Part shown: positions 9,001 to 12,000 of the stretch, in pieces | Layout: every line of letters starts with the position of its first letter | Position numbering within the stretch: position 1 is the first letter of the stretch | Origin: a virus | Taxonomy: Duplodnaviria > Heunggongvirae > Uroviricota > Caudoviricetes | Direction: 5' to 3' (one strand) | IMG/VR virus record: IMGVR_UViG_2534681832_000043 | Length of the DNA: 21,095 nucleotides | Program-made: the position numbers

Positions 9001-12000
9001 CAGTTGGCTTAATGATGGCGGTGCCGCAAAGTTGCTTTGGCATCTTAAAGGGGTGGATCTCTCAGGTTTTGACCCTCAACGAGCGCCACAGACCGATGCC
9101 TTACGTGAAGAAATCTTGCTGGGGCTGTCTGGCGTTGAATTGTTTCTTTATGGCGAGCTAATCAATGAACCTCCGTTTAATGGCGAAGTCCGTTTGTTTG
9201 CAAAGGATATGGTTAGTCGGTTTGTAGCGTGGTCGCTTGAGCGTGGGGAAAAGCTTAAAGAACCAGCTGCCAGATCACTACTGGGTAAATCACTTGCACA
9301 AATGGGGCTGGTGAAGCATGGAAGACCAGACCGAGGGAATGGCGTGTTCTACGAACTACCAGAGGTCGGAGTTCTACAGGCTGCGTTTGCCCGTCTGATC
9401 GGTATGGGGGGTTATGATGTTTTTTAATATAGTCTTTTTACAAGAAGATCGTTTTTACCTGTACCACCTATACCACTTTGCTAATTCGGCATTAAAAACA
9501 ATGTGTTATAGTGGTACAGGTCAATATCTTACCTATACCAGACCTGTACCACCTATACCATTAACAAACGCATTTCTTCTGGCTGGCTGAGAGGGAACAA
9601 CCAATGATGAGCACACCATTTTACAAAGTGCGCCAGTTAGCTTCTTCCTCTGGCTGGCAGCTACGGTTTGAGGGGCGTTCAGACTGGCTACCCATTGCGG
9701 CATGGGCGAATGTTGAAATGTGTATTGACGGCGATACCGTTGAAATCATTATTCCCTGCGTGGCAAGTCGGGACGGCTGTATAGAGCCAACAGATATGGC
9801 AGCAGAAATCAGAGAGGTAAAACATGAGCAATAACTATTGCATACCGCAGGGAATGACCAGAACGGAGCGCGAAGAATTAAAAAGTTTCGCTACACAGTG
9901 CGGGAATGCTGGCGACATCCAAAGTCTGGAACGCACTTTAATTATGATTGCGCACTGGATGCGTCAGGGGCAAAGGGTTTCATTTACTGAATATGCCAGC
10001 CAGTGGACAGAGGCACAGCGCGAACGGAGCGACGGTAATCACTCAACACCCGAAATGGCGAAGCAATGGCCTTTCAGTGGTAAACGCTGTATCAGTCCCG
10101 GTGGTTCAGATTATTACCCTGCTGGTGTGGGAGATGAGCCATGTTGTGACGAGACTGAAATCCGCCACGCAGTGACAGTAATTACCGCTGAATACCCACA
10201 ATTTAACCTTGACGGACTGGCGCTCCACAACCGGAATGCGGACTGGGAAAACCCGCTTGATAACCCGTCATTTATCGTATCGGCGAAAAGCTGCCTGAGA
10301 TGGATCAGAGACAACGGGATGAGTAATGCCCAGATTGAGAGCTTCCCGCAGGATAACCCCACATCTGACACGTTGAAGCATGAAGTGGAGCGATATAACC
10401 AGATAAACCACCAGCACAGTGATCACCCGCACTATATCCCCAACGGAGCATTTATTGCGGCGATGGTGGCAAGCGGCTACAAGGTTAAGCCAGCGGGAAG
10501 AATGAACGCATTTTTCAATATTTCAAAAAAGGGATTATGTGCTGCTATGGGTAAAAATTAAATAAATGGTACAGGTCTGTACAGGTGGGGAGAGGTCATT
10601 TTTACCCACCTGTACCACCTGCAGGCCGCGCCACACAAGGGTTTGTGACATGGTGGTACAGGTGGTACAGCAAAAACAGCGATTTTCTTTATAAGGTATG
10701 TTTTGCTCATCTGGCAGACGGAGGTATTCGCTGCGGTTTGGCACATAGCCCAGAATAGCAAAGAGTTTTACGAGACTTTTGTAAAATCCAGTGTACAAGG
10801 GCGTGACGTTTTTGAAAGTGAGCACTACGAAATTTTCGTAGTTCAAAAAACAGCCTCTGAGAAGTTGTTATGCCTGTTCAGCAAACCATCCGCATAGCTG
10901 ATCGCGAATCAAATTACCAATGGAGCCAGAAGCAAGGGCAGAACTGAAAAGCGCCTGCCGTGAAGAGTAATGCGACACCATAAATATAGTTTTTAGAGTC
11001 CATAAAAAACCTGTCAAAACCTGACACACAGAACGATGCCACCAGCTACTGAGCGGTGGCATTTTTTTGTGCTATTTGTTTCACATTTTGCAATGAATAT
11101 GATGAATATTGCGATTTGTGAAACTATAATAACTGTTGTTTTATACAGTTCTAAGGGGGCGTTATGGCTATTTCAGTAAAGCCGGTATTGATAAGTGAGA
11201 AGCAAATGGAAGCGATAAAGAAAATTCAGGAAGAGCAGCGTAAAAAATCAGGAATTGGAGTAGCGCCAACTCTGCATGAAATTGCACGAGGGTTAATAGA
11301 TAAGGCGCTGGCAGGCTGTATGTGAAAATGGATGGCATCGCATGGAACTAAAATTTATTGATAACCCTGTGCGATTACAGGCCTTTCTTAACGAGCCAGG
11401 CAATACCGAAAATATTGTTGAGCCGGGGCACACGTACTACATCAAGCCTGATGCGGTATATCTCGGCATCTACGAAGGATTGGTGCTGGCTGGCGTTCAT
11501 GAAGTGCGTAACTTCTGGCATAGCGTTGTTGAATGCCATGCGGTGTACGACCCCGGATTCCGTGGTGAATATGCACTGCAAGGGCATCGATTATTCTGCA
11601 AATGGCTTCTCGAAAACTCACCATTCCTTAACAGCATCACCATGGTTCCTGACACAACGAAATACGGACGGGCAATTATCCGTTTGCTTGGCGCTACCCG
11701 TGTTGGTCACCTTGATGATGCTTATATCAGATGTGGTAAACCCGTCGGCGTAACGCTTTATCAGTTAACTCGGCAACAATATAAGGAATTCAGCGAATGT
11801 TAATTACCCATATAGCTCATAAACATCTCAATCGCGCCGTATACGAAAAAGGCGGTGATGGTGGTGCCTCTAAAGCTCAGGCGAAGGCCCAGCAGCAGGC
11901 AATTGATTTGCAGCGCGAGCAGTGGAATACGGTGATGAATAATCTCAAGCCGTATGCAGAAGTCGGATTGCCTGCTTTACAACAACTACAAGGACTGATG

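What the first reader, a model, noticed from the sequence alone, without database searches (positions are those of the whole stretch)
9604..10561. Two-gene cassette of unknown function embedded between the iteron clusters
An overlapping pair (76 aa and 245 aa) is exactly bracketed by the two iteron clusters. No domain was recognised by eye. Genes embedded inside an origin are unusual; this may be inserted cargo (a candidate defence or anti-helper pair) or origin-associated replication or packaging factors.
Basis: inference. Interest (0 to 1): 0.55.

Follow-up and report, generated by a model that had tools for sequence, protein, structure and literature searches.

The report
Two genes inside a split satellite origin
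Two real but uncharacterised genes sit between two mirror-image copies of the replication origin of an E. coli phage satellite, and the larger one belongs to a widespread unnamed protein family that usually lies beside DNA-replication genes, so it looks like replication equipment rather than defence cargo.

Summary
orf76 (9604-9834) and orf245 (9824-10561) overlap by 11 nt. They fill the gap between two iteron clusters at 9459-9561 and 10566-10670.

The window is an EcCIMP1-like phage-inducible chromosomal island with a P4-alpha-type primase-helicase. Each iteron cluster is a ~120-bp module with 2+1+2 iterons. Module A is an inverted copy of module B. Distant relatives in Methylococcales carry one such module and no gene.

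Both genes are under purifying selection (dN/dS 0.08-0.16), and they can occur separately. orf76 follows this replicase in every Enterobacterales relative that has these iterons. orf245 is patchy: it lies outside the modules in Xenorhabdus and next to an unrelated replicase in other E. coli islands.

orf245 has two domains, neither in Pfam. Its C-terminal domain has a weak winged-helix-like fold. In 45 of 69 viral contigs this domain lies within 1.5 kb of DNA polymerase A, an SNF2 helicase or a primase-helicase. There were no defence-model hits.

Best reading: a P4 crr-like split origin with resident replication-module genes. Biochemical function remains unknown.

Novelty is moderate (new variant of a known kind). 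Interest 0.45.

The parts
7073..9427 (+). P4-alpha-type primase-helicase (784 aa): Zn-ribbon primase, Toprim, DUF5906/SF3 helicase and a C-terminal ~100-aa putative origin-binding tail
   Evidence: Pfam hits Zn_Ribbon_Prim 2.6e-15, Toprim_3 3.8e-14, DUF5906 1.2e-19. Relatives found in 13 species.
8098..10761 (.). Block with no counterpart in the otherwise syntenic PICI EcCIMP1: helicase/origin-binding half of the replicase, module A, orf76, orf245 and module B
   Evidence: blastn: window 2629-8097 is 95% and 10762-12634 is 98.6% identical to EcCIMP1, with nothing in between. EcCIMP1 has a Toprim-DUF927 replicase and its own compact origin.
9428..9572 (-). Iteron module A, an inverted copy of module B. 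Iterons at 9459-9467 (+), 9468-9476 (+, variant), 9511-9519 (-), 9544-9552 (+) and 9553-9561 (+, variant). An AT-rich flank lies on the replicase side.
   Evidence: Its reverse complement aligns collinearly with module B and with the single origins of Methylobacter and Methylomonas.
9604..9834 (+). orf76: small acidic (pI 4.6) all-beta protein of unknown function, resident between the iteron modules
9824..10561 (+). orf245: two-domain protein. The N-terminal helical domain (about aa 1-100) resembles phrog_4935. The C-terminal winged-helix-like domain (about aa 107-245) resembles phrog_9576/17839 and carries the motif S-Y-x-x-K-H-x-x-E ... Y-I-x-N-G.
   Evidence: dN/dS 0.15-0.16.
10556..10700 (+). 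Iteron module B. Iterons at 10566-10574 (-), a degenerate one next to it, 10610-10618 (+), 10653-10661 (-) and 10662-10670 (-). It ends in a GCAAAAACAGCG / AT-rich flank that is conserved as far as Methylococcales.
11045..11070 (+). Intrinsic terminator that probably ends the replicase-orf76-orf245 transcription unit
   Evidence: The terminator scan found this site and found none between the replicase stop and orf76.

Best explanation
The two genes are residents of the replication module of an EcCIMP1-like phage satellite (PICI). They are not a defence cassette.

The origin. It is P4 crr-like and made of two ~120-bp iteron modules (2+1+2 copies of CTGTACCAC) in inverted orientation, directly downstream of a P4-alpha-type primase-helicase. 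I infer that the replicase's C-terminal origin-binding tail binds both modules and bridges them, as P4 alpha is reported to do with ori and crr. That would loop out the 0.3-1.1 kb in between.

Expression. orf76 and orf245 occupy this loop. They are probably co-transcribed with the replicase, because no terminator is predicted until 11045.

orf245. I propose it is a replication accessory protein. Its N-terminal helical domain is elsewhere fused to a known DNA-binding domain. Its C-terminal domain is winged-helix-like, with an invariant polar motif. It would act at the origin or replisome, for example by assisting or limiting initiation, or by recruiting host factors.

orf76. It is a small acidic beta protein tied specifically to this replicase/iteron lineage. 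I propose it is a modulator that binds the replicase or a host factor.

Shown: anatomy, conservation, module swap, genomic association. Inferred: iteron binding, looping, co-transcription and both protein functions.
For: 1. Iteron clusters are real and non-random. Module A is an inverted copy of module B, and both are collinear with the single compact origins that follow the homologous replicase in Methylobacter and Methylomonas.
2. The P4 record places crr (two 120-bp repeats with 5 type-I iterons each) directly after alpha. Its first iteron spacings are 9 and 43 bp, the same as in module A.
3. Compared with EcCIMP1, the block 8098-10761 is replaced as one unit. That block holds the helicase/origin-binding half of the replicase, both modules and both genes.
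4. orf76 follows the replicase in 9 of 9 Enterobacterales loci that carry CTGTAYC iterons. Six of these are Xenorhabdus loci with the order module A - orf73 - module B.
5. orf245 homologues lie directly after three kinds of replicase (alpha/DUF5906, AAA_25, and VapE/PriCT for the stand-alone C-terminal domain) and before SSB.
6. In 69 viral contigs, 45 have DNA pol A, an SNF2 helicase, AAA_25 or an alpha-type replicase within 1.5 kb of the C-terminal-domain gene. Among 92 large neighbours, 32 are SNF2, 18 PolA, 5 AAA_25 and 4 DUF5906, against 1 terminase and 1 capsid.
8. Both genes are under purifying selection. No terminator is predicted between the replicase and orf76.
Against: - No biochemical function is demonstrated.
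- hhalign finds no relationship between the C-terminal domain and the replicase's own origin-binding tail (probability 0.1%).
- orf245 is mildly acidic (pI 6.1), and its putative recognition helix (NGAFIAAMVASGY) is hydrophobic. Both features are atypical for a sequence-specific DNA binder.
- orf245 is absent from several close replicon relatives (Pantoea, X. bakwenae, X. stockiae), so it cannot be essential for this origin.
- Gene neighbourhood is only guilt by association. Satellites also place interference genes just downstream of the origin.
- The 130 E. coli copies are all at least 97% identical, so they count as one lineage.
Confidence: 0.5

Rival explanations
1. Inserted cargo: an anti-helper (interference) or anti-phage defence pair that happens to sit in the origin and is expressed when the satellite is induced.
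For: orf245 is patchy among the closest replicon relatives and is found with unrelated replicases, so it behaves like a mobile accessory gene. Distant relatives have a gene-free origin, so the genes were inserted at some point. orf76 is small and acidic, like many phage-encoded protein inhibitors. The island carries other accessory genes, Abi_2 and PerC.
Against: No PADLOC, Pfam or NCBIfam hit. The two genes occur independently, which argues against an obligate two-component system. In bona fide phages, C-terminal-domain relatives sit between DNA pol A and an SNF2 helicase. That position is the phage's own replication module, not a defence hotspot. orf76 is fixed in position across E. coli, Pantoea and Xenorhabdus.
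Confidence: 0.22
2. These are the first genes of the satellite's packaging or virion-hijack module, acting together with the downstream P22-type gp14/gp7/gp20/gp16 ejection-protein genes.
For: In PICIs the region downstream of the primase and origin is the usual site of packaging and hijack genes (PMC11773190). The cassette precedes DUF2824/gp7/gp20/gp16 homologues.
Against: EcCIMP1 has the same ejection-gene module at 98.6% identity and is mobilised by its helper without this cassette. A terminator separates the cassette from that module. Relatives of orf245 occur in islands and phages with quite different downstream genes (SSB-ProQ-PerC, ClpP, SNF2) and, in one case, upstream of the replicase.
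Confidence: 0.08
3. The genes are functionally neutral passengers. What matters is only the spacing between two iteron modules, or only module B is the origin and module A is a decaying duplicate.
For: Module B alone matches the whole compact origin of distant relatives. Pantoea appears to have lost a clear module B yet keeps orf74. The spacer length varies from 0.3 to 1.1 kb.
Against: Both genes show strong purifying selection, with homologues down to 41-47% identity. Module A keeps all five iteron positions in E. coli and Xenorhabdus.
Confidence: 0.1

Closest known systems
Satellite phage P4: alpha primase-helicase with ori and crr (cis replication region)
   Same: A multidomain primase + Toprim + SF3-helicase replicase. 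Directly downstream lies a region of two ~120-bp units, each with five short iterons in both orientations. The first two spacings (9 and 43 bp) match. Replication through two separated iteron regions bound by one protein is the known P4 logic (my knowledge of Flensburg & Calendar 1987 and Ziegelin et al. 1993, not re-read here).
   Different: The iteron sequence differs (CTGTACCAC against TGTTCACC). The two units are inverted rather than direct, and they are separated by 0.3-1.1 kb of coding DNA rather than 60 bp. There is no third, distant ori cluster in the island. The C-terminal half of the replicase is only about 24% identical to P4 alpha.
EcCIMP1, an E. coli PICI mobilised by the P22-like phage Kapi1 (Pick et al. 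2025, PMC11773190)
   Same: Same gene order and 95-98.6% nucleotide identity over AlpA-AntA-Ash-small ORFs-primase N-terminal half, and over orf53-DUF2824-gp7-like genes. Both also carry a PerC gene.
   Different: EcCIMP1 has a Toprim-DUF927 replicase and a compact origin: 3 x GGTTCAGTT, an AT-rich stretch, then 3 x inverted repeats. It has no orf76 or orf245. Its integration site also differs: tRNA-Thr/proA there, yicC-dinD here.
SaPI/PICI-type origins (iteron sets flanking an AT-rich spacer downstream of rep)
   Same: The origin lies immediately downstream of the replicase and has iterons in opposed orientation.
   Different: Here the 'spacer' is two protein-coding genes of normal GC content, and each side is itself a complete 2+1+2 module.
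Plasmid R6K alpha/gamma/beta origins with pi-mediated looping (my knowledge)
   Same: Iteron-bearing origin components are separated by coding DNA and communicate by looping. A gene (pir) lies between origin parts.
   Different: In R6K the embedded gene is the initiator itself. Here the initiator is upstream and the embedded genes are of unknown function. This is an analogy only, with no homology tested.
PHROG families phrog_9576 / phrog_17839 (C-terminal domain) and phrog_4935 (N-terminal domain), all 'unknown function'
   Same: The orf245 C-terminal domain hits phrog_9576 (E 2.4e-4), and 45 of 56 stand-alone relatives hit it (best 4e-25). 10 of 28 N-terminal-domain relatives hit phrog_4935.
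   Different: These families are single-domain and unannotated. The N+C fusion is confined to a few Enterobacterales islands.

Membership tests
EcCIMP1-like PICI (phage-inducible chromosomal island) | Integrase + AlpA regulator + primase/replicase, about 20 kb, no capsid or terminase genes, integrated in the chromosome | tested here: met
   int, AlpA, AntA, Ash and primase-helicase are present. No capsid or terminase family was found in the ORFs scanned (not every ORF in the window was scanned). The island lies between yicC and dinD.
EcCIMP1-like PICI (phage-inducible chromosomal island) | Synteny and sequence identity with EcCIMP1 | tested here: met
   95% identity over 5.5 kb and 98.6% over 1.9 kb, interrupted by the replicon block.
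EcCIMP1-like PICI (phage-inducible chromosomal island) | Helper-dependent excision, replication and transfer | not testable with these tools
   Shown experimentally only for EcCIMP1.
P4-type alpha replicon (alpha + iteron ori/crr) | Zn-ribbon primase + Toprim + SF3 helicase in one polypeptide | tested here: met
   Pfam hits.
P4-type alpha replicon (alpha + iteron ori/crr) | ~120-bp repeated units with about 5 short iterons in both orientations directly downstream of the replicase gene (crr) | tested here: met
   The units are inverted, not direct, and are split by genes.
P4-type alpha replicon (alpha + iteron ori/crr) | A separate ori several kb away that carries the same iterons | tested here: not met
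   No further iteron cluster in the 21-kb window, which spans the island from int to just before dinD.
P4-type alpha replicon (alpha + iteron ori/crr) | Replicase binds the iterons through its C-terminal winged-helix domain | not testable with these tools
   Inferred by analogy. The profile of the C-terminal tail finds no solved structure by sequence.
Known anti-phage defence systems (PADLOC models) | HMM match of at least one component | tested here: not met
   No hits at E <= 1 for orf76, orf245 or the flanking small ORFs.
Obligate two-gene system (for example toxin-antitoxin-like pair) | The two genes co-occur and keep their adjacency across relatives | tested here: not met
   orf76 occurs without orf245 in L015, L018 and L020. 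orf245 occurs without orf76 in L002-L004. In Xenorhabdus the two are separated by iteron module B.
Winged-helix origin-binding domains (P4 alpha OBD / RFX type) | H-H-H-beta-hairpin fold that superposes on known members | tested here: inconclusive
Winged-helix origin-binding domains (P4 alpha OBD / RFX type) | Sequence-profile similarity to the replicase's own origin-binding tail | tested here: not met
   hhalign probability 0.1%.
phrog_9576-like C-terminal domain family | HMM match and the motif S-Y-x-x-K-H-x-x-E ... Y-I-x-N-G-x-F-I ... N-x-x-F-N | tested here: met
   Invariant S, K, H and N in a 56-sequence alignment.

The most novel reading that the evidence does not exclude
The phrog_9576-like C-terminal domain (invariant S-Y-x-x-K-H-x-x-E / Y-I-x-N-G) would define an unrecognised, widespread replisome or origin accessory factor, possibly with a catalytic or ligand-binding site. 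It would be used by phages with DNA pol A/SNF2 modules and by satellites with SF3 primase-helicases. In this satellite lineage it, together with a small acidic partner gene, would have been captured inside a looped, two-module origin, so that origin firing and expression of the accessory genes are physically coupled.
Probability: 0.25. Interest if true: 0.65.

Novelty: new variant of a known kind. Interest (0 to 1): 0.45.

Why it matters
Phage satellites exchange replication modules, and their origins are usually described as compact iteron/AT-rich sites. Here the origin is duplicated in inverted orientation and holds conserved genes. This gives a tractable case for asking how separated iteron modules cooperate, as in the P4 ori-crr problem.

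It also flags a two-domain protein whose C-terminal domain family (837 library matches at E <= 0.001 across both domains, no Pfam model) sits next to replicases in many phages and satellites. Assigning that family a function would annotate many replication modules. It would also help distinguish replication genes from defence or interference cargo in satellite annotation.

Tried and rejected
- Pfam, PHROG, NCBIfam and PADLOC scans of orf76, orf245 and the flanking small ORFs. Only weak hits to 'unknown function' PHROGs.
- PDB sequence-profile searches with the full-length, C-terminal-domain and replicase-tail profiles. Nothing found.
- Foldseek of the orf245 model against PDB. No significant hit. 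The afdb50 library was unavailable.
- hhalign of the C-terminal domain against the replicase's C-terminal tail. No similarity, so I dropped the idea that orf245 is a detached copy of the replicase's origin-binding domain.
- blastn and tblastn of the cassette against cultured phage genomes. No match. A stand-alone C-terminal-domain query found one uninformative Acinetobacter phage gene.
- Toxin-antitoxin or obligate-pair idea. Rejected because the genes occur independently.
- The CTCTGGCTGGC motif and its complement inside orf245 as a regulatory inverted repeat. The downstream arm is simply the codons of the invariant ASQW motif, and its position is not conserved in Xenorhabdus, so I did not pursue it.
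- Literature search for P4 crr biochemistry. No usable open text, so the P4 looping statements rest on my own knowledge.
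Full report
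**Observation.** The window has ORFs at 9604-9834 (76 aa) and 9824-10561 (245 aa) on the + strand, overlapping by 11 nt. The 9-mer CTGTACCAC (up to 1 mismatch, both strands) occurs 10 times in 21 kb against 2.7 expected, and no shuffle of 100 reached 10. Eight of the hits lie at 9459-9552 and 10566-10670. orf76 starts 43 nt after the last iteron of the first cluster. orf245 stops 5 nt before the first iteron of the second. The description is accurate and not a chance pattern.

**What the element is.** The window is 100% identical to an E. coli chromosome segment between yicC and dinD. That segment is an island of about 20 kb with this gene order:
- integrase, AlpA, AntA and Ash-family genes;
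- small ORFs;
- a 784-aa primase-helicase (Zn_Ribbon_Prim, Toprim_3, DUF5906);
- the two genes under study;
- P22-type gp14/gp7/gp20/gp16-like genes, Abi_2 and PerC.

It is syntenic with EcCIMP1, a PICI shown experimentally to be induced and transduced by the P22-like phage Kapi1 (PMC11773190). blastn shows 95% identity over window 2629-8097 and 98.6% over 10762-12634, with no match for 8098-10761. The unmatched block holds the helicase/origin-binding half of the replicase, both iteron clusters and both genes. EcCIMP1 instead has a Toprim-DUF927 replicase followed by a compact origin: three GGTTCAGTT repeats, an AT-rich stretch and three inverted repeats, with no gene in it. So the cassette travels as part of a replication-specificity block.

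**The iteron clusters are two copies of one origin module.** I aligned three sets of sequence: cluster B from E. coli, Raoultella and Xenorhabdus; the reverse complement of cluster A; and the single iteron regions that follow the homologous replicase in Methylobacter and Methylomonas. All are collinear. Each is a ~120-bp unit with 2+1+2 iterons and a conserved GTGGTACAGGTGGTACAGCAAAAA..GCG end next to an AT-rich flank. Cluster A is therefore an inverted copy of cluster B. Each equals a whole origin in the distant relatives, where no gene is embedded.

The annotated P4 record shows the same logic. crr lies immediately downstream of alpha and consists of two 120-bp repeats with five type-I iterons each. 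The first spacings are 9 and 43 bp, as in module A. The differences from P4 are the inverted orientation, a different iteron sequence, coding DNA between the units, and no third distant cluster in the island.

I searched one genome per species for relatives of the replicase C-terminal half and found 13 loci. I then scanned downstream of each with HMMs and the iteron pattern.

| Feature | Where found |
|---|---|
| orf76 homologues | After the replicase in every Enterobacterales locus with CTGTAYC iterons: E. coli, Raoultella, Pantoea and six Xenorhabdus loci. Absent in Arsenophonus, Methylococcales, Glaciecola and Sansalvadorimonas. |
| Order in Xenorhabdus | module A (+30 to +116), orf73, module B (+413 to +507). 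|
| orf245 homologues | Only in E. coli/Raoultella (inside the modules) and in X. ehlersii/X. innexi (outside, downstream of module B). Absent from Pantoea, X. bakwenae and X. stockiae. |
| orf245 with another replicon | In other E. coli islands a 67%-identical homologue follows an unrelated AAA_25 replicase. All of its different iterons (AAAAGTGGGGA) lie upstream, there is no orf76, and SSB lies downstream. |

The two genes are therefore separable. orf76 is tied to this replicase/iteron lineage. orf245 is a mobile replicase-adjacent gene.

Within E. coli, 130 of 5,426 complete genomes carry the replicase half and 130 carry the whole cassette. All copies are at least 97% identical, so this adds little.

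**The genes are real.** dN/dS is 0.075 (Raoultella) and 0.14 (Pantoea) for orf76. It is 0.156 and 0.146 for orf245. orf245 has 29 close homologues, all in Enterobacterales. orf76 has 12, plus the Xenorhabdus genes at 47% identity.

**orf245.** An exhaustive profile search found 837 proteins at E <= 0.001, mostly single-domain. Proteins of about 90-115 aa match residues ~5-100, and proteins of about 120-140 aa match residues ~110-243. Neither domain has a Pfam model. They correspond to phrog_4935 and to phrog_9576/17839, all of unknown function.
- *C-terminal domain family.* It has invariant S, K, H and N and near-invariant Y, E, Y, G within S-Y-G-L-K-H-x-V-E ... Y-I-S-N-G-A-F-I ... N-A-x-F-N.
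- *Structure.* The AlphaFold model is confident (pLDDT 82, pTM 0.70). Its C-terminal domain has H-H-H-beta-hairpin topology.
- *Cautions.* These scores are low, and Foldseek finds nothing significant. hhalign finds no link to the replicase's own C-terminal tail. The protein is not basic (pI 6.1). Fold-level resemblance to origin-binding winged helices is a lead, not a membership.
- *N-terminal domain.* It is fused to an RNA_pol_A_CTD DNA-binding domain in one relative (E 3.4e-11). This suggests that the N-terminal domain pairs with DNA-binding modules.

**Genomic association of the C-terminal domain.** Of seven stand-alone C-terminal-domain genes examined, four lie next to a replicase:
- directly after a PriCT_2/VapE replicase;
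- directly after VapE/DUF5906 replicases in two small integrase-bearing islands;
- between alpA and a VapE/DUF5906 replicase.

Two others lie in other contexts. The seventh is an IS-disrupted remnant next to SSB and PerC.

In 69 IMG/VR contigs encoding a relative, I took the 92 large neighbours within 1.5 kb. They include 32 SNF2 helicases, 18 family-A DNA polymerases, 5 AAA_25, 4 DUF5906, and VapE, PriCT_2, D5_N and NrS-1 polymerase domains, against one terminase and one capsid protein. 45 of the 69 loci have at least one of the four main replication proteins nearby, and the gene often overlaps the end of the polymerase gene. This is the strongest evidence that the family works in DNA replication rather than defence.

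**orf76.** It is acidic (pI 4.6) and predicted all-beta (pLDDT 71). It has no informative structural neighbour. Its only functional clue is its fixed position between the modules of this replicon type.

**Mechanism I consider most likely (confidence about 0.5).**
1. The replicase binds the iterons of both modules and bridges them, as in P4 ori-crr.
2. The intervening DNA loops out.
3. Transcription from the replicase operon runs through module A, orf76 and orf245 to the terminator at 11045-11070. No terminator is predicted earlier.
4. Orf245 acts at the origin or replisome as an accessory or regulator.
5. Orf76 modulates the replicase or a host factor.

Only the anatomy, conservation, module swap and associations are shown. 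Binding, looping, co-transcription and protein roles are inferred.

**Rivals.**
- *Interference or defence cargo (0.22).* Supported by the patchy distribution and the evolutionary insertion. Weakened by the absence of defence-model hits, the independence of the two genes and the replication-module context in phages.
- *Packaging or hijack role (0.08).* Weakened because EcCIMP1 transfers without the cassette, and because a terminator separates the cassette from the ejection genes.
- *Neutral spacer (0.10).* Contradicted by purifying selection.

**Novelty.** The element type, the replicase type and iteron origins are all known. What is new is the arrangement: a duplicated, inverted origin module enclosing conserved genes, with a traceable series of zero, one and two genes. 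Also new is the recognition that orf245 joins two unannotated domain families, one of them strongly replication-associated. I rate this a new variant of a known kind, with interest 0.45.

Noticed in passing
window 7073-8097 vs 8098-9427: The replicase gene is a mosaic. The primase half (Zn-ribbon + Toprim, about aa 1-341) is 95% identical to EcCIMP1's replicase. The helicase/origin-binding half is unrelated (DUF5906 here, DUF927 there). A recombination breakpoint therefore lies inside the gene, just after the Toprim domain.
   Followed up: partly
window 13351-14657: A ~1.3-kb IS3-family insertion interrupts the P22 gp20-like ejection-protein gene, which is intact in the reference locus L001. 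The insertion has rve and HTH_Tnp_1 ORFs on the - strand and an ALIL frameshift pseudoknot at 14209-14325.
   Followed up: partly
window 11342-17314: A satellite carrying homologues of P22 gp14 (DUF2824), gp7, gp20 and gp16 ejection proteins but no capsid or terminase genes. EcCIMP1 has the same set and its helper is P22-like. What a satellite does with its own ejection proteins is unexplained.
   Followed up: partly
window 4466-4654: Rfam hits to isrK (65 bits) and C4 antisense RNA (79 bits) lie side by side inside the annotated Ash-family ORF (4085-5113). An int-alpA RNA hit lies at 1269-1335 between int and the next gene.
   Followed up: no
window 10762-11036: About 275 bp between iteron module B and the terminator are 98.6% identical to EcCIMP1. 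They contain no convincing ORF and have no annotated CDS in the EcCIMP1 RefSeq record. This may be a conserved non-coding element or a small RNA.
   Followed up: no
L005 5495-5521 and 5952-5978 (Xenorhabdus ehlersii): A 27-nt element (CAGAAAGnAACCTnTCAnTCTCTGGCG, 89% identical copies) lies about 20 nt upstream of the start codons of both the orf76 homologue and the orf245 homologue. A related TTCTTCTGGCTGGC precedes orf76 in E. coli (9574-9587). It may be a shared promoter, operator or translational signal.
   Followed up: partly
window 18648-19610 and 20327-20614: The accessory end of the island carries an Abi_2 abortive-infection-like gene and a PerC-family regulator. PerC of EcCIMP1 was reported to repress LEE virulence genes.
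   Followed up: no
L015 6055-6160 (Pantoea stewartii): After the orf76 homologue there is only a degenerate iteron-like stretch, then a terminator, with no clear module B. This replicon may work with a single module or may be decaying.
   Followed up: partly
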